DNA of 44,121 nt, from assembly GCA_036275955.1 (NCBI GenBank), contig DASUCO010000094.1, positions 1 to 44,121 of the forward strand. Reading direction: 5' to 3'. This document shows positions 1-22,731 of the stretch, piece by piece. Position 1 is the stretch's first letter; every line of letters begins with the position of its first letter. The notes below the pieces were generated by a model. That model was not told where the DNA came from. It did not search any database and saw only the letters and a program-made list of their open reading frames with translations. The position numbers were made by a program, and so were the translations under genes. This stretch comes from Acidimicrobiales bacterium. GTDB lineage: Bacteria > Actinomycetota > Acidimicrobiia > Acidimicrobiales > CADCSY01.

Positions 1-1468
1 CACGGCCGCGATCCCGTTTCCAGCTCCGCCGCACCGGCGCCCAGCGGTCCGGCCCGGTAAGACGGGGGCATCCAATGGACCGCGACCAGGGCGGCCGCCA
101 GCTGGCTGGCCTCATCCTCGACGCCGCCGGCCGCGGCGAGCGGCGCTTGGCCCAGCCGGCGAGGTAGAGCCCTGGACGCACGCGACCGCCCTCGTGCGGC
201 GTGCGCCCGACGGCGTCCACGGGGAGGCCCGGCACCGCGGTGGGCAGCGTGCCGGCGGAGACGACCACCAACCCGGCCTCCAGGTCGGTGCCGTCGGCGA
301 GCCGCACCCCCTCGACGACCGTGGCGCCGAGGATGCGCTCGGGGGCCGCGCCGAAGCGCAGCACCACCCGGCGCTCCGCGGCCGGTCCGCGGCCGGCTGC
401 GCGCTGCGCCGTCCGCTCAGCCAGGTCGGCGAGCAGGTCGAGGCGGGCGCGGACGACCGGATCGGAGGAGGCCTCGCGGTCGACCGGCCCCTCCACATCG
501 ACGTCGACGCCGTCGACCTGGGTGAGGCCGATGAGCTCGGGCAGGGTGAAGGCGGCGTGCTCGGGGCCGCGTCGTCCCAGCACCACGACCTCGCGGATCA
601 ACGAGCCGTGCAGGGCGGCGAGCGCCTCGGGACCCATGTCGGTGGCGACGAGCCGCTCGGGCGGGGTGAGCAGGAGGCGCGCCGCGTCCAGCGCGACATT
701 GCCGTTGCCGACCACCACGGCGCGCTTCTGACGCAGCGCCCCCGCGGCAGGGCCGGGCACGCCGATGTCGCCGTTGAACCAGCCGGCCAGGGCGACGCCC
801 GACACCACGCCGGCGAGGTGCTCGCCAGCGATGTCGAGGGTGCGGGGCCGAGCCGCGCCGGTGGCGTACACGACGGCGTCGTGACCGGCTTCCAGCTCGC
901 CGTGGCTGACGTGGACGCCGACCTCGACCCCGAGGTGGAGGCGCAGTCGGGCCGCGACGTCGTCGGGCTGGCGCCAGCGGTCGGCGACGCCCTTGGTGGC
1001 GTGGTGGTCGGGGGCGACGCCGGCGCGCAGCAGGCCCCAGGGCACGATCCGGCGGTCGATCATGTCGACCACGGCGCCGGGGACCCGCCGCAGCAGGTCG
1101 TCGGCGGCGTACCAGGCCGCCGGTCCGGCCCCGACGATCGCGACCCGGATACGGCGGTTCTCGACGGTGTCGTGCTCGCGCACGAGCCGTGGCCGGTAGT
1201 CGGGCTGCTGCGGTACCCGCCGATAGAAGGCGGCGTTCACCTCGACGAAGGGCAGGTCCCGCTCGGCGAGCGCGTCGCCGGCCTTGATCGCCCCCACGGG
1301 GCAGGCGTCGGCGCAGGCGCCGCAGTCGATGCAGGCCTGCGGGTCGATGTAGAGCATCTCGGCGGTGGCGAAGTCGGGCTCGTCGGGCCGCGGGTGGATG
1401 CACCCGATCGGGCAGGCGGCCAGGCAGCTCGCGTCGTTGCAGCAGTTCTGCGTGATCACGTAGGCCAC
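1..1468 (-). CDS. Ferredoxin-NADP(+) reductase with fused N-terminal 2x[4Fe-4S]-type ferredoxin domain (FprB-like); 3' end runs off the window
   Basis: Absent from the ORF track because it has no stop inside the window. Hand translation from GTG (1468-1466) gives VAYVITQNCCNDASCLAACPIGCIHP...CIDCGACADACPVGAI (two Cys clusters). This is followed by RIRVAIVGAGPAAWYAA (Rossmann GxGxxA) and GLYLAGWAKR near the end. The start lies 1 nt after the stop of the upstream BVMO gene. Confidence 0.8.
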   Translation of the reverse strand, partial: MAYVITQNCCNDASCLAACPIGCIHPRPDEPDFATAEMLYIDPQACIDCGACADACPVGAIKAGDALAERDLPFVEVNAAFYRRVPQQPDYRPRLVREHDTVENRRIRVAIVGAGPAAWYAADDLLRRVPGAVVDMIDRRIVPWGLLRAGVAPDHHATKGVADRWRQPDDVAARLRLHLGVEVGVHVSHGELEAGHDAVVYATGAARPRTLDIAGEHLAGVVSGVALAGWFNGDIGVPGPAAGALRQKRAVVVGNGNVALDAARLLLTPPERLVATDMGPEALAALHGSLIREVVVLGRRGPEHAAFTLPELIGLTQVDGVDVDVEGPVDREASSDPVVRARLDLLADLAERTAQRAAGRGPAAERRVVLRFGAAPERILGATVVEGVRLADGTDLEAGLVVVSAGTLPTAVPGLPVDAVGRTPHEGGRVRPGLYLAGWAKRRSPRPAASRMRPASWRPPWSRSIGCPRLTGPDRWAPVRRSWKRDRGR

Positions 1469-1469: not shown

Positions 1470-3305
1470 TCAGGCCTCCTGTCCGGTGCCGAAGAGTTCG
1501 GCGAAGTCCTGCTCGACCTCGGTCGGGTACGGCGACTGGCCCAGCCCGGTGATCGTCGAGCCGCCCCACGGGTCCTCGTCCACGAGCACCGCCTCGACGG
1601 CGTCGTGATCGGCGAGGCGGAGCCGCACGGGCTGCGCGGCGCGGCGGTGGAGGCGGCGCAGGTCGGGGTGGTGCTCGACGCGACCCGACCAGCGCACGGT
1701 GTTCTCCTGGGGCTGGTAGACCGCGAGCACGTGCGCGACGACCGGCACCTCGGTGCCGTCGTCGAAGATCACGACGCCCGGCCCGTGGTACGCGCCGTCG
1801 TCCTCACGGTCGTCGACGCTGGTCATCTCGTAGTCGGCGAGGTCGGCGCGGCGCAGACGCCGGCGGTAGCCCACCGTGGTGCCCGGCCAGACCGCCCGGT
1901 TGACACCCTCGTCGTCGAGGTACCAGCTGGTGCAGCCGCCCGACGTCCACACGGTGCCCTGCGACGCGCGCTGGAGGCGGCGGTTCTCGTCGGCCTGCGC
2001 GTGCGCCTTGACCTCCACGCGGGTCGCGCCGCATCGGCGGGCGGTGGCGATGACGTCGACGATGTGGCGCACCTGCGCCTCGATCATCACCACGATCGAC
2101 TGGTTGCCGACGCCGGTGTTGGGGCCCATCACCGTGAAGAGGTTCGGGAAGCCGTGCACCGCGACGCCGAGGTAGGCCTCGGGACCGTCGGCCCACACGT
2201 CGTGCAGCGACCGGCCGCCGCGCCCGACGGCGGGCAGGGTGGCGGCGGCGTCCGTGACGTGGAACCCCGTGGCCCAGACGATGACGTCGACCTCGCGCTC
2301 GGTGCCGTCCGCGGTGCGGATGCCGGTGGGAGTGATGGCCGCGACGTCGTCGGTGACGAGCTCGACGTCCTCGCGGGCGAGGGCGGGCAGGTAGTCGCTC
2401 GACATCACGATGCGCTTGCAGCCGATCTCGTAGTCGGGCGTGAGCCGTGCGCGCAGCGCCGGGTCGGGCACCGAGCGCCGCAGGTGCCGCTGCGCGACCG
2501 AGCGCAGGAGGCCCATGTAGCGGGGGTCGAGGAAGCCGACCGTGATCGACTCGTGGGCGAGGTAGAGCGCGGTGCGCAGGCTGCGCTGCAGCCCGGGCAC
2601 GAACCGGTAGGCCGCGCGCTCCACCGCGCGGACGCGGTGATCGGGGCGCGGCAGCACCCAGTTGGGTGTGCGCTGGTAGACGTCGAGGTGGGCGGCGACG
2701 TCGGCGACGGCCGGCACGATCTGCACCGCGCTCGCGCCGCTGCCGACGACCGCCACCCGGCGACCCGCGAGATCGATGTCGTGGCGCCAGCGGGCCGAGT
2801 GGAACGCGGTGCCCGTGAACTCCTCGCGCCCCGGGATGTCGGGCAGCCGCGGAACGTGCAGCGGCCCGGTGGCCGAGACCACCGTGCGGGCGAGCACGGC
2901 GTCGCCGTCGGCGAGATCGATGCGCCACTGATCGGCGTCCTGGTCGAAGGCCAGGCCGACGACCTCCGCACCGAAGCGGATCGAGGGCCGCAGGCCCTGG
3001 CGCTCGACGACGTCACGGAGGTAGTCGAGGATCTCCGGCTGCGGGGCGTACCCGCGCGAGAACGCCTGCGAGGGGGCGAAGGAGAAGGAGTACAGCAGCG
3101 ACATGACGTCGCAGGCGGCACCGGGGTAGGTGTTGTCGCGCCAGGTGCCACCGACCTCGTCGGCCTTCTCGAGCACGACGACGTCGTCGATGCCGGCCTC
3201 GCGCAGCCGGATGGCCGCGCACAGCCCGCCGAAGCCGGCGCCGATCACGGCCACCTCCCGCACGTCGGGGGAGGATGCGGCGCCGGCGCCGGACGGGGCG
3301 CTCAC
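1470..3305 (-). CDS. Flavin-dependent Baeyer-Villiger-type monooxygenase with C-terminal DUF4873-like extension
   Basis: Inner part of ORF 1470..3716. Motifs: VIGAGFGGL (FAD binding), the BVMO fingerprint FTGTAFHSARW (FxGxxxHxxxW) and VVGSGASA (NADP binding). GTG at 3305 forms a GTGA overlap with the upstream stop (3302-3304). The Arg-rich N-terminal part of the ORF is rejected as non-coding. The last ~106 aa (YHGPGVVIFDDGTEVPV...RWSGRV...DPWGGSTITGLGQSPYP) resemble DUF4873. Confidence 0.85.
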   Translation of the reverse strand: MSAPSGAGAASSPDVREVAVIGAGFGGLCAAIRLREAGIDDVVVLEKADEVGGTWRDNTYPGAACDVMSLLYSFSFAPSQAFSRGYAPQPEILDYLRDVVERQGLRPSIRFGAEVVGLAFDQDADQWRIDLADGDAVLARTVVSATGPLHVPRLPDIPGREEFTGTAFHSARWRHDIDLAGRRVAVVGSGASAVQIVPAVADVAAHLDVYQRTPNWVLPRPDHRVRAVERAAYRFVPGLQRSLRTALYLAHESITVGFLDPRYMGLLRSVAQRHLRRSVPDPALRARLTPDYEIGCKRIVMSSDYLPALAREDVELVTDDVAAITPTGIRTADGTEREVDVIVWATGFHVTDAAATLPAVGRGGRSLHDVWADGPEAYLGVAVHGFPNLFTVMGPNTGVGNQSIVVMIEAQVRHIVDVIATARRCGATRVEVKAHAQADENRRLQRASQGTVWTSGGCTSWYLDDEGVNRAVWPGTTVGYRRRLRRADLADYEMTSVDDREDDGAYHGPGVVIFDDGTEVPVVAHVLAVYQPQENTVRWSGRVEHHPDLRRLHRRAAQPVRLRLADHDAVEAVLVDEDPWGGSTITGLGQSPYPTEVEQDFAELFGTGQEA

Positions 3306-4222
3306 GCGAGGAACCCGAAGCCGCGCCACATCGCGGTCGACACGGGGTTGCACAGACCGTTCTCGACGAGGAAGCCGTGCAGGCTCTCGAAGGACTGGCG
3401 CCGCACGGCGGCGACCCGCTCGTTGGCCTTGGCCTGGCGGACCGCCTCGCGCACCGGCAGGCCGCAGCGGCGGTAGACCTCGCGGTTGATGAACATCTGC
3501 TGCAGCACGAAACCGGCTCCTCCGTTGGCGGTGGCGGCGAAGGCGCGCTCGAGCGCCGAGGCATGGGCGATACGACGGCGCACCCCCTCGCGGGCGAAGC
3601 GGATGTGCCGCGCCTCCTCGGTGACGTGGATCTGCATGACCTGCTGCATCAGCGGCTGGAGCTCGGGGTGGTGCGCGACCTTGCGCTGCACGTCGTCGAG
3701 CACCTCCTCGCCGCACAGGGCCGCGACGTAGAGCATGATGCCGCGGTAGGCGAGCGGGAAGGCCTGCACGGCCGCGGCCTCGAGGCGGCTCAGCCGGTAG
3801 GGGCGGGCGCCGATCGCCTTGACCGCGCGACCGAACATGATCATGTGCCGGGTCTCGTCACCGATCTCGGTGAGCGAGTAGTGCACGTGGGCGTCGGTGG
3901 GGTCCTGGTGCAGCATCGCGCGCAACAGCCCTTGATTGAGGGTGTTCTCGAACCACACGGCCCGCGACAGCAGGTTCGCGGCCTCCTCGCGCGAATAGTC
4001 GACGCGCTCGCGGTGGGTCATCGCCTCCCACAGCGGCGTGCCGTACAGCGACAGCGTCTCGGGCGGCAGGTAGTACAGGTCCGGGCTCTGCGGAGCGTCC
4101 CAGTCGACGTCGACCAGGGCGTTGTAGGAGCGACGGGCCGACCCGCGCAGCAGGCGGTCGGCGACCTGGTCCTTGCTCGGGCCCGCAGGGCTCGGGGTCG
4201 CGGGGCTCGGGGCGATCGTCAT
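3302..4222 (-). CDS. Diiron oxygenase, AurF / p-aminobenzoate N-oxygenase-like family
   Basis: ORF 3302..4276. Two carboxylate-His motifs are present (EIGDETRH and VTEEARH), typical of ferritin-like diiron oxygenases. ATG at 4222 is preceded by GAGGAGG (from HEEVLD-M), so it is preferred over ATG 4276. Confidence 0.8.
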   Translation of the reverse strand: MTIAPSPATPSPAGPSKDQVADRLLRGSARRSYNALVDVDWDAPQSPDLYYLPPETLSLYGTPLWEAMTHRERVDYSREEAANLLSRAVWFENTLNQGLLRAMLHQDPTDAHVHYSLTEIGDETRHMIMFGRAVKAIGARPYRLSRLEAAAVQAFPLAYRGIMLYVAALCGEEVLDDVQRKVAHHPELQPLMQQVMQIHVTEEARHIRFAREGVRRRIAHASALERAFAATANGGAGFVLQQMFINREVYRRCGLPVREAVRQAKANERVAAVRRQSFESLHGFLVENGLCNPVSTAMWRGFGFLA

Positions 4223-4260
4223 GTCCAGCACCTCCTCGTGATGGCCGCCGGCGGCGGTCC

Positions 4261-4321
4261 GTAGATTATTAGACACTTTTCGTCTACTCGTCTAGTAGTG
4301 GTCCCGGCTAGTGTTCGCCAC
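4261..4321. promoter_or_regulatory. Divergent promoter/operator region between the diiron oxygenase operon and the TetR gene
   Basis: This is the only AT-rich patch in the neighbourhood. It has overlapping inverted repeats: TAGAC(4270-4274)/GTCTA(4282-4286) and CTACT(4284-4288)/AGTAG(4294-4298). There is a second GTCTA at 4290-4294. TAGTGT (4309-4314) lies 7 nt before GTG 4322. Confidence 0.5.
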
Positions 4322-4900
4322 GTGAGCGAGCAATCCACGCCGACGCGGATCATCGAGGCCGCCGTGTCGTGGATCGCCGAGACGGGTCTGCGCAAGATCT
4401 CCGTCGACGAGATCGCGAGCAAGGCCTCGGTGTCGCGCGCCACGGTCTATCTCCACTTCCCGGGCCGCTCGGCGATCATCGAGGCCGCGGTCCGCCACGA
4501 GGTCGGTCGCATCCTGGCGCGGGCCAGCGCCGACGCGGAGAGGTACGACGACCGCGACGCCCGCCTGGTCGAGGTCTTCGCCGCCTCCGTCGTCGATCTC
4601 GCCCACCACCCGGCACTGGCGGCCGTGCTGCGGCACAACCCGAAGATCCTGCTGCCCTTCGTGTTCGGCCCCGACCCGCTCGGCATCCGCATGGCGCGCG
4701 AGCACGTCGCGACCCTCTTCGACGGCGGCCCGGGCGCCCACGAGCTCGCCGAGATGATCGTGCGCACCTTCCACAGCTTCCTGCTCGCGCCGTCGAGCGT
4801 GTTCGACCTGAGCACGCTCGACGGGGCGCGCCACTACGCCCGGGTGGTGCTGCTGCCGCTGCGCGACAGCCTCGCCGCCGCGGCGGCCGACAGCACCTGA
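4322..4900 (+). CDS. TetR/AcrR family transcriptional regulator
   Basis: ORF 4298..4900. HTH region: ISVDEIASKASVSRATVYLHFPGRSAII. Start chosen at GTG 4322 because it has a leaderless-type -10 seven nt upstream; GTG 4298 is the alternative. Confidence 0.85.
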   Translation: MSEQSTPTRIIEAAVSWIAETGLRKISVDEIASKASVSRATVYLHFPGRSAIIEAAVRHEVGRILARASADAERYDDRDARLVEVFAASVVDLAHHPALAAVLRHNPKILLPFVFGPDPLGIRMAREHVATLFDGGPGAHELAEMIVRTFHSFLLAPSSVFDLSTLDGARHYARVVLLPLRDSLAAAAADST

Positions 4901-4907: not shown

Positions 4908-5912
4908 TCAGCGCGCCTCGCCGATCGGGGCGGCCAGCGCCGCCCGCAGCCGGACGCCGAGCGCGTCGAGCGCCCGCCCGGCGGGCGGGACCAGACCGGC
5001 CATCAGGTGGAAGTCGTGGAAACGTCGCGCGTGCTGCACGTGGTCGACGGGCACGCCCAGCGGTCCGAGACGCGCGGCCAGCTGCTCGGCGTCCCAGCGC
5101 AGGGGGTCGTCGCCGCACGAGTCGAGCACGATCGGCGGCAGCTGGGCCAGCACGTCGTCGCTCGCCGCCAGTGGCGACAGCTCGGGGTCCGAGCGGTCGT
5201 GTCCGGCCGCGTAGCTGTCGGCGAACACGTCCATCAGCTCCGCGGTGAGCAGCGGCTCGCGGGGGCCGAACCTCCGCTGCGCCCCCGCCTCCGGCCGCAT
5301 GTCGGCGGCAGGACACACGAGCACGAGCGCCGAGGGGCCGGGCATCGCGCGGGTGATCGCCCGGATGCTGGCGGTCAGCGACAGCGCGCCGCCCGCGGAG
5401 TCGCCGGCGAGCACGACGACGGGCTCCTCCCCCGCCGCGCGCGCTCGGGCCACCTCCGCCTCCCGCACCTCCAGGTAGGCCTCCCAGACGTCGTCCTGGG
5501 CCGCAGGGAAGGGATGCTCGGGCGCCAGGCGGTAGTCGAGCGAGTGCACGACCATGCCGGCGGCGGCGGCGAACCGGCTCACCATCGCCCGGTGCCCCCG
5601 GGGGCTCCCGACCGTGAAGCCGCCGCCGTGCAGGTAGAGCACCGTACCGGGACGCCGCGACCGCGAGGGCTCGTAGCGTTCGGCGGGACGACCGGCCAGC
5701 GCGCCCCGCTCCACGCGGACCCCGGACGCCGGCGGGGCGGCCCAGGTCAGCAGGTCGGCGCGATGGCGCCGGGTCGGCCACGAGGCACTCGGCGAGAGCG
5801 CCCAGGCCGCGCTGCGACGCGAGCCGGCGATCAGCACTCGGTCGGCGGCGGCCGCCGCTCCCGAGGCGAGGACGGCGATCGCCCCCGTGGGGCGCGGGCG
5901 GTGACGGTTCAT
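4908..5912 (-). CDS. Alpha/beta hydrolase, hormone-sensitive-lipase-type esterase/lipase
   Basis: ORF 4908..5912. It has the oxyanion-hole motif LHGGGF and the nucleophile elbow GDSAGG. It lies 38 nt downstream of the DUF445 gene on the same strand. Confidence 0.85.
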   Translation of the reverse strand: MNRHRPRPTGAIAVLASGAAAAADRVLIAGSRRSAAWALSPSASWPTRRHRADLLTWAAPPASGVRVERGALAGRPAERYEPSRSRRPGTVLYLHGGGFTVGSPRGHRAMVSRFAAAAGMVVHSLDYRLAPEHPFPAAQDDVWEAYLEVREAEVARARAAGEEPVVVLAGDSAGGALSLTASIRAITRAMPGPSALVLVCPAADMRPEAGAQRRFGPREPLLTAELMDVFADSYAAGHDRSDPELSPLAASDDVLAQLPPIVLDSCGDDPLRWDAEQLAARLGPLGVPVDHVQHARRFHDFHLMAGLVPPAGRALDALGVRLRAALAAPIGEAR

Positions 5913-5950
5913 CGGGGTTCCCTTCTAGCATCGCGCGACGCGGGCGCGGG

Positions 5951-7234
5951 TCATCGGCTGAGGTGCTCCACGAGCACCACTTGCAGCTCACCGACGGCGA
6001 ACCCCAGCAGGGCGCCAACGGTGACCATGAGCAGCTCGTCGTCCTTGAAGACCGGGCGCAGGATCCCCTCGAACTCGTCGGGGGTCAGCAGGTCCAGCTT
6101 CTCGACGATGAGCTCCTCGAGCCCGAGGGTCCGCTCGGCGTAGTCGCGGGCGGAGTCGAGGGCGCCCGGCAGATGGTCGACGAGCCGCTCGACCACCACG
6201 ACCTTCAGGTCGCGATAGCGCTGCGTCCCGATGGCCAAGGCCAGGGCCGGACGGGCCAGACCGAGCTCGTCGTCGACAGCCTCGGAGATCTCGCGGTCGA
6301 GGGCCGCGAAGAGGCGGTCGGACGTCGGACCGTGCAGGAGGCCGTCGAGCAGCACGTCGGGCGACAGGATGTCGCGGGCGATGATCCGCGCGTAGTCGCG
6401 GGTGATCTGCTCGCGCCGTGCTGGGATCACCCCCTGCACGGGCACCCGCCCGAACAGCAGGCGCTGCTCGCGCGGCATGAAGATGAGGTTGAGGGCGAGC
6501 CAGTCGCTGGCGAACCCGACGAACAGGCCGAACGCCGGCATGATCCACGGCTCGTGGAGCACGCCCCAGGCCACCATCTGCACGGTGCCGATGGCGAGGC
6601 CGAAGTAGATGCCGCTGCGTCGGATGAAGCGCAGGGGCGCGCGCCCGATGCCTCGCACCAGGTCGTTGAGCTGCTGCTTGTTGCGCACGAGGATGTTGAC
6701 CGCGAGGTACTGGATGTCGATGTAGCGGCTGAGATCGGTGCGCATGTCGGCGAGCAGGCGATCGACGACCCGCGGTGCCGAGCGCTGCACCCTGGCGACG
6801 ACGGCGCGACGTCCGAGCTCGGGTACGGCGTCCCACAGCCCCGGCCGCAGTTGGCTGCACAGGTCGCGCGCGAGCTCGTCGACCAGGTCGACCAGGGGAC
6901 CGCGCAGCTCCTCGACCAACTCGGCGGCGTCGACCCGGTCGAGGAGCTCCTCGGGCCGCAGCAAGCGCTCGGTGATCAGATCCAGGGTGACGGCGGCGGT
7001 CTTGCCGGCGCGCCGCGGCACCACCCCCTGCCACCCGATCGGTCCGATGCCGCGGAACTCCAACGGCCGGTAGATCATCTGCAGCGCCACCACCTTGGTG
7101 CCGTAGCCGACCAGGGCCGCGACCAGCGGCATCGAGAGGTAGATGTACCAGTTGAGCGAGACGTCGGCCCGGATCTCGGGCCACGTCTGCACGGCGGCGA
7201 CCTGGGCGGTCGCGGCGATGGCGGCGGGGCTCAT
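5951..7234 (-). CDS. DUF445-family integral membrane protein
   Basis: ORF 5951..7261. It has an N-terminal hydrophobic helix (YIYLSMPLVAALVGYGTKVVAL), internal helices and a C-terminal helix. The overall look is that of the DUF445/YjiN-like family. ATG 7234 forms an ATGA overlap with the upstream stop. Confidence 0.7.
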   Translation of the reverse strand: MSPAAIAATAQVAAVQTWPEIRADVSLNWYIYLSMPLVAALVGYGTKVVALQMIYRPLEFRGIGPIGWQGVVPRRAGKTAAVTLDLITERLLRPEELLDRVDAAELVEELRGPLVDLVDELARDLCSQLRPGLWDAVPELGRRAVVARVQRSAPRVVDRLLADMRTDLSRYIDIQYLAVNILVRNKQQLNDLVRGIGRAPLRFIRRSGIYFGLAIGTVQMVAWGVLHEPWIMPAFGLFVGFASDWLALNLIFMPREQRLLFGRVPVQGVIPARREQITRDYARIIARDILSPDVLLDGLLHGPTSDRLFAALDREISEAVDDELGLARPALALAIGTQRYRDLKVVVVERLVDHLPGALDSARDYAERTLGLEELIVEKLDLLTPDEFEGILRPVFKDDELLMVTVGALLGFAVGELQVVLVEHLSR

Positions 7235-7935
7235 CCCGCACCTCCGAAGGCATGGACCCACAGGTCCTCACCGAGCGGCGAGAGCCGGAGGCCGCCCCGT
7301 TCGACCTTCGCCGGGAGGGCTCCGCGGGAGGCGGCCTTGAGCGCGCGCAGCACGACGATGTCGGCCAGCAGCACCTCGTAGTCGGTGGCCAGGGCGTCGT
7401 CCTCGGGGCCCACCTCGACGAGACCGAGGGCGAGCAGGTGCGCGACGTAGGTCGGTGTCAGCTGCGGCAGCGACAGGCTCGCGCTGCGGCCCACCAGCGA
7501 CATGTTCTCCAGCACCCGCTCCCCGGCGCGCCCCCGTGACGACACGGTGACGACCGGCGACGCGCCACCGTCGGACAGCGAGGCCAGGATGCGCGCCTCG
7601 TCGGGCACCAGCTGGTCGAGCACGCGGTGGTAGAGCACCTCGCGGCTCTCCGTCGTCGACTGCTCGAGCGCCTGGCGCAGCAGCCGGCCCAGTTTGACCC
7701 CGAGGTCCGGCTCCGCCGCGCCGATCTCGGCGACGGCGGCCGAGGGCCCGAGCGGACGGGGCGGGGCGACGGCGTCCATGCGGGCCCGCAGGAGCCCCAG
7801 GGCCTGCCGCTCGTACCAGCCGGCGACGAGCGCGGTGGAGCGCACCGCGGTGCCGATCGCCCATCGGGCAGCGCCGAGAAACTCGGGGGCGATGGCGCCC
7901 CGGCTCTCGCGCTGAACGGGCAGGCGGTCGTTCAC
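7231..7935 (-). CDS. Hypothetical protein, tentatively Abi-alpha/DUF4393-like
   Basis: C-terminal 234 aa of ORF 7231..8292. GTG 7935 forms a GTGA overlap with the SDR stop. The segment LYHRVLDQLVPDEARILASLSDGG...LENMSLVGRSASLSLPQLTPTYV recalls actinobacterial proteins annotated as Abi-alpha family. This is from memory only and was not searched. Confidence 0.55.
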   Translation of the reverse strand: MNDRLPVQRESRGAIAPEFLGAARWAIGTAVRSTALVAGWYERQALGLLRARMDAVAPPRPLGPSAAVAEIGAAEPDLGVKLGRLLRQALEQSTTESREVLYHRVLDQLVPDEARILASLSDGGASPVVTVSSRGRAGERVLENMSLVGRSASLSLPQLTPTYVAHLLALGLVEVGPEDDALATDYEVLLADIVVLRALKAASRGALPAKVERGGLRLSPLGEDLWVHAFGGAG

Positions 7936-8843: not shown

Positions 8844-10504
8844 CCGGCCATCTCCTCTGCTGCCAGGTCCCGGAGCGCCCGCTTGAGCACCTTCCCGGTG
8901 GGGTTGCGGGGCATCGCGTCGATGACCCGGATCTCGCGCGGCACCTTGTAGCGCGCGAGGTTCTCGCGCACGAAGAGGCGCAGTGCCTCGCCGTCGACCT
9001 TCTCGCCGGGGGCGGGCACGACGAAGGCGACCAGCCGGTGGCCGTAGGTCACGTCGGGGACGCCGATGACCGACACCTCGCCGACCTCGGCGCGGCGGGC
9101 CAGCAACTCCTCGACCTCGCCGGGGAAGACGTTCTCGCCGCCGGAGACGATCATGTCGTCGTCGCGACCGTCGACATGCAGGCGACCCTCGGCGTCGAAG
9201 TGGCCGACGTCGCCGGAGCTCATCAGCCCGCCGACCATCTCCTTGGTGCCACCGCCGGTGTAGCCGTCGAACTGCATGCCGTTGCCGACGAAGATGCGGC
9301 CCGTGGCGCCCTGCGGAACCTCCCGCCCGTCGTCGTCGAGCAGTCGCACCGTCGTGCCGCGCAGCGGACGGCCCACACAGGCAGGCGCGGCGCGCAGGTC
9401 GTCGGGGCCGGCGATGGTGGCGTAGGCGACCTCGGTGGAGCCGTAGAGGTTGTAGAGCACCGGCCCGACGCGATCGAGGATCCGGGTGGCCAGGGCGGCG
9501 CCGAGCTGCGAGCCGGCCACGAAGACCACCTGCAGGGAGGACAGGTCGCGGCGACGACCGCCGGCCTCCTCGGCCTCCAGCAACCGCTGCACCATGATCG
9601 GCACGGCGATCAGGGCGGTGACGCGGTGGGTCTCGATGTCGTCGAGCAGCGCCTCGGCGTCGAAGCGGCGACGAGTGACGATCGTGCAGCCCAGGGCCAG
9701 GGCGAGCATGGCGTGGGCGAAGCCCAGGGTGTGGAACATCGGTGCGGGGATGGCGGTGACCCCGCGACCGCGGAACGGGATGCGCTCGAGCTGCACGCCG
9801 AAGGGGGCCAGCGACAGAGGCTCCTTGCGCGGCGCTCCCTTGGGGGTGCCGGTGGTGCCGCTGGTGAGCAGCACGAGCTTGGCGTGGGTGCCGGGACGCG
9901 GCGGCGACGACGTCGGGAAGCTCGCGACCAGCCGGTCGAGGGAGGTGACCTCGGCGGCAGCCGCCGGGTCGGGGCCGTCGACCCACGACAGCACGCGGCC
10001 GAGCCGGGGCTCGACGCCGGTGAGCAGGGCCGTGTACTCATCGTCGTGGACGAGCAGGTCGACGCCCTCGCGGCCGCAGACCTCCACCAGCTGCGGACCG
10101 GCGAAGTCGGTGTTGAGCAGCACGATGCGCGCGCCGCAGCGGGCGGCGGCGAAGACGGCCTCGAGGAACCCGCGGTGGTTGCGGGCGAGCACCGCGACGC
10201 CGTCACCGGGCCGCAGCCCGGCGGCACGCCACCCGTTGGCCACCGCGTTGGCCCGGCGGTCGAGCTCGACGTAGGTCAGCCGGCCGCGCTCGTCGACGAT
10301 CGCCGCACCGTCGCCGTAGCGCGCCGCGGCGAGCGAGAGCAGGCCGCCCACGGGGCCGTGGCGCAGGAGGCCCGCGACGATACGCGCCAGGGCGGGCGGC
10401 GGGTCGACGCCCAGCATGCCGGCGCGCCACGCCGCACGCGCGTACGCAGCCTCGTCGACGACACGGTGGGCCGCGCGGGCCGGCAGCCCCAGCAGGCCGC
10501 TCAT
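8840..10504 (-). CDS. AMP-dependent acyl-CoA synthetase/ligase (FadD-type)
   Basis: Inner part of ORF 8840..11323. Motifs: LTSGTTGTPKGA, YGSTE and a GKVLKRAL C-terminus. ATG 10504 forms an ATGA overlap with the aldehyde dehydrogenase stop. Confidence 0.9.
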   Translation of the reverse strand: MSGLLGLPARAAHRVVDEAAYARAAWRAGMLGVDPPPALARIVAGLLRHGPVGGLLSLAAARYGDGAAIVDERGRLTYVELDRRANAVANGWRAAGLRPGDGVAVLARNHRGFLEAVFAAARCGARIVLLNTDFAGPQLVEVCGREGVDLLVHDDEYTALLTGVEPRLGRVLSWVDGPDPAAAAEVTSLDRLVASFPTSSPPRPGTHAKLVLLTSGTTGTPKGAPRKEPLSLAPFGVQLERIPFRGRGVTAIPAPMFHTLGFAHAMLALALGCTIVTRRRFDAEALLDDIETHRVTALIAVPIMVQRLLEAEEAGGRRRDLSSLQVVFVAGSQLGAALATRILDRVGPVLYNLYGSTEVAYATIAGPDDLRAAPACVGRPLRGTTVRLLDDDGREVPQGATGRIFVGNGMQFDGYTGGGTKEMVGGLMSSGDVGHFDAEGRLHVDGRDDDMIVSGGENVFPGEVEELLARRAEVGEVSVIGVPDVTYGHRLVAFVVPAPGEKVDGEALRLFVRENLARYKVPREIRVIDAMPRNPTGKVLKRALRDLAAEEMAG

Positions 10505-12030
10505 CGCGCGCCCGCCTTCACACGCCGGGCCCCGCGGGCGCCCAGCGCCCGCAGGGAGCGCTCGATGAGGATCGCCTTCGCCGGCACGTAGGGGTGCCAG
10601 GCCAGACGGCTGACCAGCGGCTGGTGCACGCGCGAGGTCGTGATCACCTGCGGCCGGCAGAACTTGCGCACACCCGACGCGCCCCCCAGGCGACCACCGA
10701 CACCGGAGGACTTCCAGCCCGCCTGGGGCACCGGGAAGCACGCGAGGTGCATGTTGACGTCGTTGATGTCGACGGCGCCGACCTCGAGGCGGGCCGCCAC
10801 CCGTTCGCCGGCGGCGACGTCGCGGGTCCACACCGAGGCCGACAGCCCGTAGAGCGAGTCGTTGGCCAGACGCACCGCCGCGTCGACGTCCGGGACGCGC
10901 ATGATCGGGATGACCGGGCCGAAGGTCTCCTCGGTCATCACCTCCATGGTGTGGTCGACGTCGACCAGCACGGTCGGGCGCACGTAGCGGCCCTCGCGGC
11001 CGCCTCCGGCGACGACCCGCGCGCCCTTCGCGACGGCGTCCTCGAGGTGGGCCATGACGAGGTCGGCCTGGCCGGCGGTGGTCATGGCCCCGAGGTCGGT
11101 GCCGTGCCCGGTGTCGGCCGTCTGACGGAGCCCGCCCACGAGCTCGACCACACGCGCGACGAAGGCGTCGTGCACAGCGTCCTCGACGTAGACGCGCTCG
11201 ATGGAGGTGCACATCTGGCCGAGGTTGCCGAGGGCGCCGAACACGACACCGCGAGCGGCCAGGTCGACGTCGGCGTCGGCGAGCACGAGGGCCGGATCCT
11301 TGCCGCCGAGCTCGAGACCGCACGGGACGGGCCGGGCCGCGGCGCGCGCGGCGACGAGGCGACCCGTGCGCGTGGAGCCGGTGAACTGCACGTAGTCGAC
11401 GGTGTCGACGACGGCCTCGCCCACCTCGGCGAGGCCGGTCACCGTGGTGAGCACGGCGGGCGCGCCGATCTCACGCCAGCCCGCGGCGACGCGCTGCACG
11501 GCCAGCGGCGTGAACTCCGACGGCTTGAGGACGACGGCCGCTCCGGCGAGCAGCGCGGGCACGGCATCGAAGAGGCCGAGGCCGACGGGGAAGTTCCAGG
11601 GCACGATGACGCCCACGACGGGATAGGGCCGCTGCACGGTGCGCAGCCGGCGGCTGGAGGTGAGCACGCTGTGCGGCAGCGGCCGGTCGGGCGCGAGGAA
11701 GCGGGGCGCGCGCTTGGCGTAGTAGTTCAGCAGGTCCATCGCCATGCCGAACTCGAGGCTGGCCTCGATGCGCGGCTTGCCGGTCTCGGCCTGCAGCAGC
11801 GCGAGGATCTCCTCCTGGTGGTCCCATAGCCAGTCGGCCCATCGGCGCAGCCAGGTGGCGCGACCTACGGGCCCGAGCGCCTCCCAGGTCGGCTGGGCAC
11901 CGCGCAACCCGTCCACCGCGGCGCCGACGTCGGCCGCGGCCAGGCTCGGGACCGTCCCGATGGTCTCCCCCGTGCCGGGGGCGGTGACCGGGATCGCGGC
12001 CGCCCGGTCGAGGGCATCACTTCGCACCAT
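10501..12030 (-). CDS. NAD(P)-dependent aldehyde dehydrogenase
   Basis: Inner part of ORF 10501..12426. Motifs: VPWNFP, ELGGKDP, catalytic-Cys region GQMCTSIER and EETFGPV. ATG 12030 has no SD but has TACCGT 7 nt upstream, a leaderless-type arrangement. Confidence 0.9.
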   Translation of the reverse strand: MVRSDALDRAAAIPVTAPGTGETIGTVPSLAAADVGAAVDGLRGAQPTWEALGPVGRATWLRRWADWLWDHQEEILALLQAETGKPRIEASLEFGMAMDLLNYYAKRAPRFLAPDRPLPHSVLTSSRRLRTVQRPYPVVGVIVPWNFPVGLGLFDAVPALLAGAAVVLKPSEFTPLAVQRVAAGWREIGAPAVLTTVTGLAEVGEAVVDTVDYVQFTGSTRTGRLVAARAAARPVPCGLELGGKDPALVLADADVDLAARGVVFGALGNLGQMCTSIERVYVEDAVHDAFVARVVELVGGLRQTADTGHGTDLGAMTTAGQADLVMAHLEDAVAKGARVVAGGGREGRYVRPTVLVDVDHTMEVMTEETFGPVIPIMRVPDVDAAVRLANDSLYGLSASVWTRDVAAGERVAARLEVGAVDINDVNMHLACFPVPQAGWKSSGVGGRLGGASGVRKFCRPQVITTSRVHQPLVSRLAWHPYVPAKAILIERSLRALGARGARRVKAGAR

Positions 12031-12181
12031 GGGCCGAACGGTAGGAAGCAGCAGGGTGTGACGACCATCGCTTCGCGGGCCACGTGCCTCTCGTTTTCGG
12101 CCACCTGTCGCGGCCGGGACCCCGTCCACCGGGGGCGTCCTACCTGCGCGACGGGACCTCACGCGCGAGAATGGGCCCGAC
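12031..12181. promoter_or_regulatory. Divergent promoter region between the ALDH operon and the AraC regulator
   Basis: 152-bp gap between divergent starts. On the minus strand it reads TGCTTCCTACCGT-7nt-ATG. The 10-mer GTAGGAAGCA (12041-12050) recurs at 18916-18925 in the other AraC-divergent region. Confidence 0.4.
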
Positions 12182-13234
12182 ATGGACGACGACGACCAGG
12201 CCTCGATCAGCACGAACCGCTGGCACCAGCGCCGACCCACCGCGAGCGCCGCGCTGCTGGTCGCGCTCGGTGTCGAGCAAGGCGTGCGGAGCGAGGACCT
12301 CCTGCGCGACACCGGGCTCGACCTGGTGCAGCTGCACGACCCGGCCGCGGAGATCGACGCTGACCAGGAGCTGCGGCTGATCGACAACCTCGTGGCCCAG
12401 GTCGACGTCCCCGACCTCGGCTTCATCGCCGGCGAGCGCTACCACTTCGGTCTGCACGGGATCTGGACGTACGCGGTGATCAACAGCCGCGACCTGCGGG
12501 TGGCGCTGGAGATCGGCACCCGGTACGCCGAGCTCACCTACAGCTTCCTGCGCCCGGCCTTCGTGATCGCGGGCGATGAGGGCCGCATGCACCTCAACCC
12601 GGACGACCTGCCCGCCCGCCTCGTACGATTCCTCATCGAACGCGACCTGCAGGCCGCCAGCGCGGTCTTCCTGGCCCTGACGGGTCTGCCCGGGCTTCCG
12701 GCGAGTTCGGCCCGGCTGCCGTACGCGCGCCCCACCGACGAGCAGCACCTGCAGCGCTACGTCGACCTGCTCGGCGTCGAGCCCGAGTGGGGCACCGGCG
12801 AGTGCTGGCTCGGCTTCCATCCCGCGCTGCTGGACCTGCCGATCCCGTCGGCATCGGCCCGCGCAGCCGCCGACGCCGAGCGGGCCTGCGCGGAGCTGCT
12901 CACCCGACGGCGCCGCCGCAGCGGCTTCGCCGCCGAGGTGCGCGAGGTGTTGGCTCGCGGGCGGGTGACGACCGACCAGGCCGAGGTCGCGGCGACGCTG
13001 CACGTCAGCCTCCGAACCCTGCGTCGGCGGCTGGCCGAGGAGGGCACCACCTACCGCGAACTCGCCCAGGAGACCTGGGGGCTGCTCGCCGAGGAACTGC
13101 TCCGCTCCGGCCTGACGGTCGAGCAGGTGGCCGACCGTCTGGGCTACGGCGGGGCGTCCAGCTTCACGCGGTCGTTCAAGGCGTGGAAGGGCGTCAGTCC
13201 CGGCACCTTCGCCCGCCAGGGCACGGGGACCTGA
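12182..13234 (+). CDS. AraC family transcriptional regulator with N-terminal effector-binding domain (VirS-like architecture)
   Basis: ORF 12182..13234. The C-terminal double HTH reads ATLHVSLRTLRRRLAEEGTTYREL...ADRLGYGGASSFTRSFKAWKGVSPGTF. The gene is divergent from a lipid-type operon. Confidence 0.85.
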   Translation: MDDDDQASISTNRWHQRRPTASAALLVALGVEQGVRSEDLLRDTGLDLVQLHDPAAEIDADQELRLIDNLVAQVDVPDLGFIAGERYHFGLHGIWTYAVINSRDLRVALEIGTRYAELTYSFLRPAFVIAGDEGRMHLNPDDLPARLVRFLIERDLQAASAVFLALTGLPGLPASSARLPYARPTDEQHLQRYVDLLGVEPEWGTGECWLGFHPALLDLPIPSASARAAADAERACAELLTRRRRRSGFAAEVREVLARGRVTTDQAEVAATLHVSLRTLRRRLAEEGTTYRELAQETWGLLAEELLRSGLTVEQVADRLGYGGASSFTRSFKAWKGVSPGTFARQGTGT

Positions 13235-21131: not shown

Positions 21132-21150
21132 GCACGGCCCGGAGGCGACG

Positions 21151-21204: not shown

Positions 21205-22731
21205 TCAGGCCGGGGCGACGTCCTTGCGCCGGCGGGAGCCGACCTGCTTCGGGGCGGGCGCGACGACCGGCGCGTCGAGCACCCAGTGCTCCTCCACGGG
21301 GGCGCGCATCGCCTTGCGGTAGCGGTCCGGCGTCCACGGCCACAGCTCGGGCAGGCCGTCCTTGCCGAGGTACCAGCTGGTGCAGCCGCTGGCCCACACC
21401 GTGCCCGGCATCGCGGCGTTCATGGCGCGCTGGTGCTCCTCGTAGGCCTCCTGGCTCACCTCGACGGTGTCGAACTCCCCGGCCGCCCACCGCTCGATCC
21501 AGCCCGCGACGAAGGCCGCCTGGGACTCCGCGATGGCGGTGAGCGAGTAGTTGCCCACCGGGCTGTGCGGGCCCATCAGCATGAACAGGTTCGCCAGGCC
21601 GGGCACCGCGACGCCGTAGTAGGCCTTGGGGCCGTCGGCCCAGACGTCGTCGAGCGTGCGACCGCCGTCGCCGACCACCGACGCCGGTCGGATGAAGGCG
21701 TGGGCGTCGAAGCCGGTGGCGAGCACCAGGACGTCGAGGTCGTGCTCCTCGCCGTCGGCGGTGCGCACACCGGTGGGCGTGATCCGCTCGATGGCGTCGG
21801 TGACGACGTCGACGGTGTCGCGCTGCACGGCCTTGAAGTAGCCCGGCGACATCACCAGGCGGCGACAGCCCGGCTGGTAGTCCGGCGTCAGCTTGGCCCG
21901 CAGGTCCCGGTCGCGCACCATCGCGAGGCTGCTGCGGCACAGCAGCTCGATCGCGCGACGACGGACGCCGTCCTGCACCAACGCCTGGGCGAAGAGCTCC
22001 ATCGCGGTGCGGTAGGCCAGGTAGCCGCCGTGGTCGAGGGCGCTCAGGCGGCGGTGCGCCGCCTTCAGCAGCCGCGGGTAGGCGGGGTTGGGCAGGGTCA
22101 CCACCCAGTGCGGCGAGCGCTGGAAGACGCTCACCTTCGACGCCACCGTCGACAGCGCGGTCGTGATCTGCACGCCCGTGGAGCCGCTGCCGATGATGCC
22201 GACGCGCGCGCCCTCGAGGGGCACGTCGTGGTCCCACCGCGCCGAGTGGAACAGCGCGCCCTCGAACTCCTCGGCGCCCGCGATGTCGGGCACGTGCGGG
22301 TGGTGCAGCACCCCGGCGGCGCTGAGCACGAAGTCGGCACGCCACTCCCCACCCGCCGCGGTGCGCACGACCCACTCGCCGTCGACCCGCTCGATCGAGG
22401 TGACCTCCTGCCCGAAGCGCACGTGACGGCGCAGGTCGAGGTCGTCGGCGACCTTCTCGAAGTAGGCCGCGATCTCCGCCCCCGGCGAGAACAGGTGCGA
22501 CCAGTCGGGGTTGGTGGCGAACGTGAACTGGTAGAAGCGCGACGGCACGTCGCACGCCAGCCCGGGGTAGGTGTTGTCGCGCCAGGTGCCGCCGATGCTC
22601 CCGCGCTTCTCGAGCACGGTGATGTCGTCGACCCCGGCCTCGCGCAGGTAGTGCACGGCGCACAGGCCCGACATACCGGACCCGACGACGACGACGCGGG
22701 GCGAGCGCGGGCGGGCGGGGGTGGGGTGCAT
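21205..22731 (-). CDS. Flavin-dependent Baeyer-Villiger-type monooxygenase (second copy, no DUF4873 tail)
   Basis: ORF 21205..22761. Motifs: VVGSGMSGL, the fingerprint FEGALFHSARW and IIGSGSTG. ATG 22731 is preferred because GAAGGAGAAGACC precedes it. Confidence 0.85.
   Translation of the reverse strand: MHPTPARPRSPRVVVVGSGMSGLCAVHYLREAGVDDITVLEKRGSIGGTWRDNTYPGLACDVPSRFYQFTFATNPDWSHLFSPGAEIAAYFEKVADDLDLRRHVRFGQEVTSIERVDGEWVVRTAAGGEWRADFVLSAAGVLHHPHVPDIAGAEEFEGALFHSARWDHDVPLEGARVGIIGSGSTGVQITTALSTVASKVSVFQRSPHWVVTLPNPAYPRLLKAAHRRLSALDHGGYLAYRTAMELFAQALVQDGVRRRAIELLCRSSLAMVRDRDLRAKLTPDYQPGCRRLVMSPGYFKAVQRDTVDVVTDAIERITPTGVRTADGEEHDLDVLVLATGFDAHAFIRPASVVGDGGRTLDDVWADGPKAYYGVAVPGLANLFMLMGPHSPVGNYSLTAIAESQAAFVAGWIERWAAGEFDTVEVSQEAYEEHQRAMNAAMPGTVWASGCTSWYLGKDGLPELWPWTPDRYRKAMRAPVEEHWVLDAPVVAPAPKQVGSRRRKDVAPA

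What the first reader, a model, noticed from the sequence alone, without database searches (positions are those of the whole stretch)
1473..1790. DUF4873-like domain fused to the C-terminus of a BVMO
The last ~106 aa of the monooxygenase lie beyond the usual BVMO C-terminus: YHGPGVVIFDDGTEVPVVAHVLAVYQPQENTVRWSGRV...LVDEDPWGGSTITGLGQSPYP. As I recall it, this matches the pattern of the small stand-alone DUF4873 proteins (Y.G.A....dG....V.v.L.G...P.dG...W.GR...dPWG...v.G). Those are frequently encoded next to flavin monooxygenases in mycobacteria. A covalent fusion would be Rosetta-stone evidence that DUF4873 works with the monooxygenase. The second BVMO in the window (21205..22731) lacks this tail.
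Basis: partly seen in the sequence, partly recalled or inferred. Interest (0 to 1): 0.4.

Follow-up and report, generated by a model that had tools for sequence, protein, structure and literature searches.

The report
BVMO with a DUF4873 tail
The monooxygenase really does carry a small domain of unknown function (DUF4873) on its end, but this fusion is common and already annotated in related bacteria, and comparison shows the domain's constant partner is the neighbouring iron oxygenase rather than the flavin enzyme.

Summary
The gene at 1470..3305 (-) encodes a 611-aa type I Baeyer-Villiger monooxygenase (BVMO). Its residues 505-594 match Pfam DUF4873 (PF16170) at 50-54 bits against a cut-off of 25, over the whole profile. 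The frame is continuous (GC3 0.93-1.0), so there is no missed stop or frameshift.

The fusion is not new. More than 50 protein clusters from Amycolatopsis, Nocardia, Mycobacterium and Rhodococcus share it, and many are named 'DUF4873 domain-containing protein'.

- In 60 surveyed DUF4873 loci, an AurF-type diiron oxygenase lies within 1.7 kb in 52. Any BVMO-like sequence occurs in 16.
- 113 of 114 DUF4873-positive genomes also have an AurF gene.
- Direct AurF-DUF4873 fusions are abundant in fast-growing mycobacteria.
- Mycobacteria keep DUF4873 while the attached BVMO decays.
- All 8 distinct fused BVMOs follow an AurF gene. Of 77 unfused homologues, 1 has a strong AurF neighbour.

Here the gene sits in a coupled operon: AurF, BVMO-DUF4873, then a ferredoxin-reductase fusion, with a divergent TetR. 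My best reading is that DUF4873 is a cofactor-less accessory or docking domain of the diiron oxygenase. This scan reached the same module on other DNA (e1-5235455).

The parts
1470..3305 (-). Gene for the 611-aa BVMO-DUF4873 fusion protein (stop codon 1470-1472; GTG start 3305-3303)
   Evidence: ORF list. The start overlaps the upstream stop as GTGA. GC3 is 0.93-1.0 throughout. Pfam finds FMO-like, Pyr_redox_3 and DUF4873. The AF2 model has mean pLDDT 85.6.
1845..3266 (-). BVMO core (aa 14-487). It holds the FAD Rossmann motif GAGFGG, the GGTW...PGAACD segment, the fingerprint FTGTAFHSARW, the NADPH Rossmann motif GSGASA and GCKR.
   Evidence: These residues are invariant in the 54-sequence alignment A1. 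Foldseek against PDB gives CHMO, STMO, PAMO and OTEMO at E 1e-45 to 1e-41, target-normalised TM 0.77-0.82 and 25-35% identity. The closest NCBIfam model is PtlE, below its cut-off.
1794..1844 (-). Acidic linker (aa 488-504, ...SVDDREDDGA)
   Evidence: It lies between the end of the BVMO profile match and the start of the DUF4873 match. Stand-alone DUF4873 proteins have a similar acidic stretch before Y.GPA.
1524..1793 (-). DUF4873 domain (aa 505-594). It is predicted as six beta strands plus one short helix, with no conserved Cys or His.
   Evidence: PF16170 scores 50-54 bits over profile positions 3-90 of 91. Strands are at 505-513, 519-531, 536-543, 558-564, 570-577 and 583-588, with block pLDDT 75-96. 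No Cys is above 30% and no His above 57% in A1. The invariant residues in A2 are P, W, G and R.
1473..1523 (-). C-terminal 17 aa after the domain, with a predicted helix at 596-606. It is not conserved among the fusions.
   Evidence: AF2 secondary structure. The A1 consensus has no majority residue here.
3302..4276 (-). AurF-type diiron oxygenase gene, immediately upstream and translationally coupled. The longest ORF starts at 4276. The likely start is ATG 4222, with GAGGAGG 9 nt upstream.
   Evidence: PF11583 at E 3.1e-88, 296 bits. Sequence read directly. The same AurF-then-fusion order, with a 4-nt overlap, is seen in Amycolatopsis, Mycobacterium and Rhodococcus.
2..1468 (-). Ferredoxin (2 x 4Fe-4S type) fused to an FAD/NAD(P)H reductase, FprB-like. 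It starts 1 nt after the fusion gene's stop and runs off the window.
   Evidence: Fer4 plus Pyr_redox_2. Sequence at 1468-1472. The same gene lies downstream in L016, L018, L046 and L081.
4322..4900 (+). Divergent TetR-family regulator (GTG 4322; stop 4898-4900)
   Evidence: TetR_N at E 8e-12. It is 42% identical to the TetR at the same position in L018 and L046.

Best explanation
The gene encodes an intact FAD/NADPH type I Baeyer-Villiger monooxygenase with a C-terminal DUF4873 domain of about 90 aa, all beta and without a cofactor site. It is the middle gene of a translationally coupled operon under a divergent TetR. The order is AurF-type diiron oxygenase, BVMO-DUF4873, then a ferredoxin-FNR fusion.

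Across the order sampled around the mycobacterial genome G614, DUF4873 belongs to the AurF-type oxygenase module, not to BVMOs as such. It occurs in four forms: free-standing beside AurF, in a TetR-DUF4873 bicistron divergent from AurF, fused to the C-terminus of AurF, or (as here) fused to a BVMO encoded just after AurF.

The most likely role is an accessory or docking domain that binds the diiron oxygenase and supports its turnover. In this fusion it would tether the BVMO to the diiron oxygenase. The two oxygenases would then act as one complex on successive steps, with the ferredoxin-FNR fusion supplying electrons to the diiron site.

Shown: domain identity, the in-frame fusion, operon structure, synteny and co-occurrence. 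Inferred: the physical contact with AurF, the stimulatory effect and the pathway logic.
For: Domain and fusion.

Conserved cassette: AurF overlaps the start of the fused gene in Amycolatopsis, Mycobacterium, Rhodococcus and Nocardia loci, 8 of 8 distinct fused loci.

Survey of 60 DUF4873 loci from 6 families: AurF lies within 1.7 kb in 52, at a median distance of 796 bp. Pfam confirmed AurF in the samples checked.

Genome co-occurrence: 113 of 114 DUF4873-positive genomes are AurF-positive, 40 are AurF-only and 147 have neither. The five genomes checked whose DUF4873 lacks an adjacent AurF still have AurF elsewhere.

Direct AurF-DUF4873 fusion: L012 is one open frame with both Pfam domains. 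All 120 best clusters related to it carry both domains.

BVMO is dispensable: the mycobacterial forms are deletion remnants of the BVMO that still carry an intact DUF4873. In the domain tree they are nested with stand-alone and AurF-fused forms.

Control: of 77 unfused BVMO homologues, 1 has a strong AurF neighbour, and that locus also has a free DUF4873.

No conserved Cys or His, so the domain is not itself a redox carrier.

Genetics in the literature: deleting the stand-alone DUF4873 gene litO lowers the N-hydroxylation that needs the AurF-like LitN, and deleting litN abolishes it (PMC10616846).
Against: No physical interaction was tested, and no multimer model could be run.

In 37 of 60 loci DUF4873 is co-transcribed with a TetR rather than with AurF. 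In 8 loci (one family) AurF is not adjacent.

The fused BVMO keeps all catalytic motifs, so a BVMO-directed role in this clade is not excluded.

AurF genes are commoner than DUF4873 (40 genomes are AurF-only, and there are 1-8 paralogues per genome). Many AurF enzymes therefore work without it.

Related genomes are not independent, so the counts overstate the statistical support.
Confidence: 0.55

Rival explanations
1. One reading: DUF4873 is a partner of flavin (Baeyer-Villiger) monooxygenases. The tail docks on the BVMO itself, for example as a lid on the substrate or NADPH face, and modulates BVMO catalysis.
For: More than 50 clusters keep the fusion, with all BVMO catalytic motifs invariant. 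The AF2 model predicts the tail as a folded domain with pLDDT 75-96. Truncated BVMO-DUF4873 forms show that the two have been linked for a long time.
Against: Only 16 of 60 DUF4873 loci have any BVMO-profile hit within 8 kb at E<=0.01. Five of those hits are single generic matches to the N-terminal Rossmann motif on separate ORFs, and two more are faint remnants in the DUF4873 ORF itself. Of 77 unfused close homologues, 75 have no DUF4873 nearby. In mycobacteria the BVMO part loses its NADPH-domain segments while DUF4873 stays intact. DUF4873 is fused to AurF in at least 120 clusters.
Confidence: 0.12
2. DUF4873 is a regulatory accessory of the module's TetR repressor, for example a ligand-presenting or anti-repressor protein. 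Its fusions to enzymes serve only to co-localise it.
For: A TetR (TetR_C_32 type) lies immediately upstream on the same strand in 37 of 60 loci. This includes 7 of the 8 loci with no adjacent AurF. A TetR is also present in the window's cassette.
Against: No TetR-DUF4873 fusion was seen, and all fusions found are to oxygenases. The window's TetR is of a different subfamily from the one in the bicistrons and matches only the TetRs of other fused cassettes. The litO deletion lowers product formation rather than changing cluster expression in an obvious way, although expression was not measured in what I read.
Confidence: 0.15
3. DUF4873 is an adaptor that docks the ferredoxin-FNR (FprB-like) reductase onto its oxygenase clients. 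On this reading it serves electron delivery rather than the oxygenase active site.
For: The reductase gene follows the fusion gene directly in the window, L018, L046 and L081, and after an interposed SDR gene in L016. AurF-type enzymes need an external two-electron donor (established knowledge).
Against: In the 60-locus survey (L021-L080) the reductase profile hits only one locus, L046. Counting every locus examined, it is found only in the five fused cassettes named above, and never beside a stand-alone or AurF-fused DUF4873. The Rhodococcus and Nocardia fused cassettes lack it.
Confidence: 0.08
4. Artefact: a missed stop or frameshift has joined two separate genes, a BVMO and a stand-alone DUF4873.
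For: The assembly is a fragmented MAG (317 contigs, 79% complete). The downstream gene's frame also happens to be open up to 1768.
Against: There is one continuous frame, with GC3 0.93-1.0 across the junction. The same fused architecture is found in more than 50 independent clusters from isolate genomes, with similar lengths of 572-627 aa. The Pfam match is in the BVMO's own frame.
Confidence: 0.01

Closest known systems
BVMO-DUF4873 fusion proteins of Amycolatopsis, Nocardia, Mycolicibacterium/Mycobacterium, Rhodococcus, Smaragdicoccus and Actinocrispum (NCBI names: 'DUF4873 domain-containing protein', 'NAD(P)-binding domain-containing protein', 'FAD-dependent oxidoreductase')
   Same: They have the same two-part architecture and similar length (572-627 aa). 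The BVMO motifs are invariant. The AurF gene upstream overlaps the start, a TetR is divergent, and the ferredoxin-FNR gene is often downstream.
   Different: The best relative is only 59-61% identical. The window comes from a class in which PF16170 passed its cut-off in only 2 of 401 sampled genomes. None of these proteins has been characterised in the literature I could search.
LitO / LitN of the lipothrenin gene cluster, Streptomyces aureus LU18118 (PMC10616846)
   Same: A DUF4873 protein is encoded directly after an AurF-like diiron oxygenase. This is the only case found with genetic data. Deleting litO lowers the LitN-dependent N-hydroxylation, and deleting litN abolishes it.
   Different: LitO is a free 110-aa protein and no BVMO is involved. 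The substrate (an N-acyl threonine amide) is known there and unknown here. The sequence relationship of LitO to the window's domain was not measured.
AurF-DUF4873 single-chain 'diiron oxygenase' of the Mycolicibacterium fortuitum, houstonense, goodii, wolinskyi and cosmeticum group
   Same: They have the same two partners (AurF and DUF4873) and the same acidic linker before the Y.G motif.
   Different: There the domain is fused to AurF itself. Here it is fused to the next gene's product, a BVMO. In the domain tree those domains fall in a separate clade (99/96) from the window's fused clade (100/99).
Solved type I BVMOs: cyclohexanone monooxygenase (7v8o, 3gwd), steroid monooxygenase (4ap1), phenylacetone monooxygenase (1w4x, 2ylt) and OTEMO (3up4)
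   Same: Fold and motifs of residues 14-487 agree. Foldseek gives E 1e-45 to 1e-41, target-normalised TM 0.77-0.82 and 25-35% identity.
   Different: The 50 best-matching solved chains are 509-540 aa long, so none has room for an extra C-terminal domain like the one at residues 505-611 here.
Effector (coupling) proteins of bacterial multicomponent diiron monooxygenases (MMOB / DmpM type). This is an analogy only.
   Same: They are small, cofactor-less proteins encoded with a diiron oxygenase and its reductase (established knowledge for MMOB; for DUF4873).
   Different: No sequence or fold relationship was shown. AurF-type enzymes are a different diiron family and are not known to need an effector. 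A profile search of DUF4873 against all PDB sequences found nothing.

Membership tests
Pfam DUF4873 (PF16170) | Profile score above the curated gathering cut-off over most of the profile | tested here: met
   50.2 bits in the whole protein and 54.5 bits on the tail alone, against a cut-off of 25, over profile positions 3-90 of 91. The genome scan gives 54.6 bits.
Pfam DUF4873 (PF16170) | Signature residues of the family alignment: Y.GPA, P..(D/E)G..W.GR, DPWG, G.G.PP | tested here: met
   The window has YHGPG, QPQENTVRWSGRV, DEDPWGG and GLGQSPYP. The invariant P, W, G and R of A2 are all present. The window's clade replaces EP.DG with QP.EN, as does the stand-alone protein P0128.
Pfam DUF4873 (PF16170) | Fold of the family | not testable with these tools
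   No solved structure was found by profile search. The AF2 model gives six strands at pLDDT 75-96, but the domain could not be searched on its own.
Type I (class B flavoprotein) Baeyer-Villiger monooxygenase | Two Rossmann motifs flanking the fingerprint FxGxxxHxxxW | tested here: met
   GAGFGG (22-27), FTGTAFHSARW (163-173) and GSGASA (188-193) are invariant in A1. The motif definitions come from established knowledge.
Type I (class B flavoprotein) Baeyer-Villiger monooxygenase | Fold like solved BVMOs | tested here: met
   Foldseek against PDB gives E 7e-46 and TM 0.81 to CHMO 7v8o, with similar values to STMO and PAMO.
Type I (class B flavoprotein) Baeyer-Villiger monooxygenase | NADPH- and O2-dependent ketone-to-ester activity | not testable with these tools
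   This needs an enzyme assay. The closest NCBIfam equivalog (PtlE) scores 235 bits against a cut-off of 1100, so no substrate can be assigned.
AurF / DUF4873 / TetR oxidation module of actinobacteria (as defined in this survey and in scan note e1-5235455) | An AurF-family (PF11583) gene adjacent to the DUF4873-bearing gene | tested here: met
   PF11583 at E 3.1e-88. Its stop overlaps the fusion gene's start.
AurF / DUF4873 / TetR oxidation module of actinobacteria (as defined in this survey and in scan note e1-5235455) | A TetR-family regulator in the module | tested here: met
   A divergent TetR lies at 4322-4900. It is orthologous (42%) to the TetRs of other fused cassettes. It is not the TetR_C_32 type found in the TetR-DUF4873 bicistrons.
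Effector proteins of multicomponent diiron monooxygenases (MMOB-like) | Sequence or fold homology to MMOB / DmpM | tested here: inconclusive
   The profile search of all PDB sequences returned only chance-level hits with E >= 0.16. A fold comparison of the isolated domain was not possible. The resemblance is functional analogy only.

The most novel reading that the evidence does not exclude
DUF4873 is a dedicated protein partner (effector or docking subunit) of a large, uncharacterised branch of AurF-type diiron oxygenases. It would be comparable in role to the coupling proteins of multicomponent diiron monooxygenases. The BVMO-DUF4873 fusion would then mark a physical two-oxygenase complex (diiron plus flavin) with its own ferredoxin-FNR reductase. 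That would give AurF-family enzymology a missing native component.
Probability: 0.3. Interest if true: 0.65.

Novelty: new member of a known kind. Interest (0 to 1): 0.33.

Why it matters
The fusion itself is ordinary, because it is widespread and already labelled in public annotation. What it points to is more useful.

DUF4873 has no assigned function. The comparative data here tie it firmly to AurF-type diiron oxygenases, enzymes whose native electron supply and partner proteins are poorly known. This cassette contains all the candidates in one coupled operon: oxygenase, a DUF4873-bearing partner, a ferredoxin-reductase and a regulator. That makes it a compact system in which to test by expression what DUF4873 does.

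The reading also corrects a database-style assumption ('DUF4873 goes with flavin monooxygenases') that could mislead annotation.

Tried and rejected
(1) A single-sequence AF2 run of the whole protein gave pLDDT 36.6. A Foldseek search with it gave no hit at E<=0.001, only scattered small beta-barrel proteins, so it is not usable.

(2) Foldseek with the good model returns only BVMOs in the rows shown. 

(4) A word-indexed protein search with the tail alone found nothing. The exhaustive representative search found 64 relatives. The longer ones are fragments or truncated BVMO fusions, and none of the ten scanned with Pfam is an AurF or TetR fusion.

(5) The search for related loci with the DUF4873 alignment failed because it has no conserved 7-10 column stretch. 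It was replaced by the genome search plus fetch from genomes.

(6) The weak PF16170 hits in the window's own class (18-26 bits) lie in the middle of unrelated long frames. They are not BVMO fusions.

(7) The frameshift or missed-stop idea was rejected.

(8) Literature searches for a BVMO with such an extension, or for this AurF branch in mycobacteria, gave nothing mechanistic.

(9) An inverted-repeat search of the TetR/AurF spacer at seed 6 found none.
Full report
THE OBSERVATION

Its longest form (1470..3716) includes an upstream stretch with low GC3 (0.25-0.53) that overlaps the preceding gene in another frame. The real gene starts at the GTG at 3305-3303. That GTG shares its last two bases with the TGA stop of the upstream gene (GTGA).

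Pfam places DUF4873 (PF16170) on residues 505-594 (window 1524-1793), covering profile positions 3-90 of 91. The score is 50.2 bits in the whole protein and 54.5 bits (E 1.5e-14) on the tail alone, against a cut-off of 25. A six-frame scan of the whole assembly finds that one match and no other.

GC3 in the gene's frame is 0.93-1.0 from the start to the stop, without a dip at the BVMO/DUF4873 junction. There is no hidden stop or frameshift. The second BVMO in the window lacks the domain.

IS THE FUSION NEW?

No. In a search of 5.8 billion protein clusters, 56 of the 119 best non-self hits carry PF16170 together with the flavin-monooxygenase domains. That includes 46 of the first 47. Their lengths are 572-627 aa and their identities 47-61%. 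They come from Amycolatopsis, Nocardia, Mycolicibacterium/Mycobacterium, Rhodococcus, Smaragdicoccus, Actinocrispum and metagenomes. NCBI already names several of them 'DUF4873 domain-containing protein'.

In the 54-sequence alignment, the FAD and NADPH Rossmann motifs, the BVMO fingerprint FxGxxxHxxxW, the PGAACD segment and GCKR are invariant. An AlphaFold2 model built on that alignment has mean pLDDT 85.6. It matches cyclohexanone, steroid and phenylacetone monooxygenases at E about 1e-45 and TM about 0.8. The enzyme part is therefore an ordinary, apparently functional type I BVMO.

The tail is predicted as a compact six-stranded beta domain (block pLDDT 75-96) followed by a short unconserved helix. 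It is less conserved than the core: mean pairwise identity is 41% against 59%. It has no conserved Cys or His. The family-wide invariant residues are P, W, G and R. It is therefore unlikely to hold a metal or an Fe-S cluster.

CONTEXT

The gene is the middle of three tightly packed minus-strand genes.
- Upstream is an AurF-type diiron oxygenase (PF11583, E 3e-88; stop and start overlap).
- Downstream, 1 nt after the stop, is a fusion of a 2 x [4Fe-4S]-type ferredoxin with an FAD/NAD(P)H reductase (FprB-like). It runs off the window.
- A TetR gene is divergent.

The same order (TetR, then AurF, then BVMO-DUF4873, often then the reductase) is found in Amycolatopsis, Mycobacterium branderi and Rhodococcus. 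It is also found in G1032, Mycobacterium sp., Rhodococcus sp. WS4 and Nocardia brasiliensis. That is 8 of 8 distinct fused loci. The closest unfused homologue examined (57% identical) has neither AurF nor DUF4873 beside it.

WHICH PARTNER DOES DUF4873 FOLLOW?

PF16170 is found in 114 of 301 sampled genomes of the order that holds the mycobacterial genome G614, usually as a single copy. I fetched 60 of these places with 8 kb on each side. I scanned them with profiles built here for DUF4873, the BVMO core, AurF, the reductase and the TetR. Samples were checked with Pfam.

An AurF gene lies within 1.7 kb in 52 of the 60 loci, at a median distance of 796 bp. A BVMO-profile hit occurs within 8 kb in only 16 of 60, even at E<=0.01 with the filters off. 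Five of those hits are single generic Rossmann-motif matches on separate ORFs, and two more are faint remnants in the DUF4873 ORF itself.

The arrangements are as follows.
- AurF followed by the full BVMO-DUF4873 fusion.
- AurF followed by a shortened gene that keeps only pieces of the BVMO (profile positions about 7-37, 100-228 and 305-438, or less) plus an intact DUF4873.
- AurF followed directly by a free DUF4873.
- AurF and DUF4873 in one open frame (L012).
- A TetR-DUF4873 bicistron divergent from AurF, in 30 loci.
- In one family, the TetR-DUF4873 bicistron with AurF elsewhere in the genome.

The single-chain AurF-DUF4873 form is very common. All 120 best clusters related to L012 (69-100% identity; M. 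fortuitum, houstonense, goodii, wolinskyi, cosmeticum and others) carry both domains.

At genome level, 113 of 114 DUF4873-positive genomes are AurF-positive. The exception is a partial match in a fragmented assembly. A further 40 genomes have AurF only and 147 have neither. These genomes are related, so the nominal P value overstates the case. However, the pattern spans six families and several gene arrangements.

As a control from the BVMO side, I examined 80 loci of this BVMO subfamily. Three are fused, and all three have AurF directly upstream. Of the 77 unfused, one has a strong AurF neighbour (L130), and that locus also has a free DUF4873.

In a tree of the domain, the fully fused forms (window, L016, L018, L046) form one clade (100/99). 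The mycobacterial free, truncated and AurF-fused forms form another (99/96). The domain has therefore been attached to different carriers while staying with AurF.

WHAT IT MOST LIKELY DOES

Only one paper in the searchable library mentions DUF4873. In the lipothrenin cluster, the free DUF4873 protein LitO is encoded right after the AurF-like N-oxygenase LitN. Deleting litN abolishes N-hydroxylation and deleting litO lowers it. The authors leave LitO's role open (PMC10616846).

Together with the comparative data, this makes an accessory or docking role toward the diiron oxygenase the best-supported reading. It would be a small cofactor-less domain that binds the AurF-type enzyme and improves its turnover. 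In the window's protein it would tether an active BVMO to that oxygenase. The in-operon ferredoxin-FNR fusion is the obvious candidate electron donor for the diiron site. A nearby esterase gene (4911-5924) and, in Amycolatopsis, an in-operon SDR would fit a hydroxylate, oxidise, Baeyer-Villiger, hydrolyse sequence. That pathway is inference only.

I put this at 0.55. The genomic association is solid. The physical mechanism is untested.

RIVALS
- A regulatory role with TetR (0.15) has real support from the bicistrons but none from fusions.
- A reductase-docking role (0.08) fails on the rarity of the reductase near DUF4873.
- An assembly artefact (0.01) is excluded.

LIMITS

I could not inspect how the tail packs against the BVMO in the model. 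I could not search the isolated domain's fold or run a multimer prediction. The profile search of DUF4873 against all PDB sequences found nothing. The neighbourhood survey used my own profiles and a sample of 60 loci from one order.

TAXONOMIC ODDITY

In the window's own class, PF16170 passes its cut-off in 2 of 401 sampled genomes, and the weak hits there are not BVMO fusions. In the phylum sample, almost all hits are in one mycobacterial genus. The contig is also a mild compositional outlier in its MAG. The cassette was probably acquired horizontally or the contig was mis-binned. I did not resolve which.

RELATION TO EARLIER NOTES OF THIS SCAN

A follow-up report on another genome (e1-5235455) had already described an AurF module whose fixed partners are DUF4873 and a TetR. 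My independent survey agrees. First-reader notes e1-4191071 and e1-2652443 reported AurF-DUF4873 fusions, and I confirmed that architecture on other DNA. Note e1-3989516 describes the whole cassette on this same window.

VERDICT

The domain and the fusion are real. The protein is a new, 60%-identical member of an already annotated architecture. The interpretation needs redirecting from the BVMO to the AurF-type oxygenase. Interest is modest (0.33).

Noticed in passing
window 1-44121 (contig C94 of the MAG): The contig is a mild compositional outlier in its bin. Its GC is 0.730, against 0.713 +/- 0.007 for the 50 contigs of at least 15 kb, and its tetranucleotide correlation is the third lowest. 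The cassette's nearest relatives (59-61% identity) are Amycolatopsis, Nocardia and Mycolicibacterium, while PF16170 is almost unseen in the window's own class. This suggests horizontal transfer or mis-binning.
   Followed up: partly
window 4215-4330: The AurF gene probably starts at ATG 4222 (GAGGAGG 9 nt upstream) rather than at the longest-ORF GTG 4276, and the TetR at GTG 4322. The 99-bp spacer is AT-rich for this genome. It holds only short 5-bp palindromes (TAGAC..GTCTA, CTACT..AGTAG), and the repeat tool at seed 6 reports none.
   Followed up: partly
L042-L045, L050, L054, L057 (Mycobacterium genomes G614, G990, G563, G1032, G540, G1038, G895): The genes between AurF and the DUF4873 domain are deletion remnants of a BVMO. 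They keep profile pieces of about 7-37, 100-228 and 305-438, or less, in one frame with an intact DUF4873. This looks like a reductive series from a 600-aa fusion towards a free DUF4873.
   Followed up: partly
L130 (uncultured Actinomycetota MAG, MFD01275.bin.3.362): This is a 'split' version of the window's cassette. It has two adjacent AurF-type genes, an unfused BVMO of the same subfamily and a free DUF4873 gene on the opposite strand.
   Followed up: no
L059, L060, L062-L067 (family f132 genomes): Here a TetR-DUF4873 bicistron has no adjacent AurF. In L062 it is followed by a FAS1-type dehydratase-like gene (PF13452) and, further on, an M1-peptidase-like gene. In the five of these genomes that were checked, AurF genes lie elsewhere, hundreds of kb away or on another contig.
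   Followed up: partly
window 4911-5924 (-) and 5954-7267 (-): An Abhydrolase_3 esterase/lipase gene and a DUF445 gene lie just beyond the TetR. An esterase is the usual follow-up enzyme to a BVMO. Whether it belongs to the same pathway is unknown.
   Followed up: no
window 20007-22836: The second BVMO (no DUF4873) sits next to a divergent short-chain dehydrogenase gene (20007-21128, +). The window also holds an aldehyde dehydrogenase (10504-12438), an AraC regulator (12062-13231) and another alpha/beta hydrolase (13277-14149). Together they make a region rich in oxidative catabolic genes.
   Followed up: no
window 1473-1768: The frame of the downstream reductase gene stays open upstream of its start as far as 1768, overlapping the DUF4873 coding region. 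Its GC3 is high only because of the GC-rich overlap. The Pfam match and the homologues show that the BVMO frame is the coding one.
   Followed up: yes
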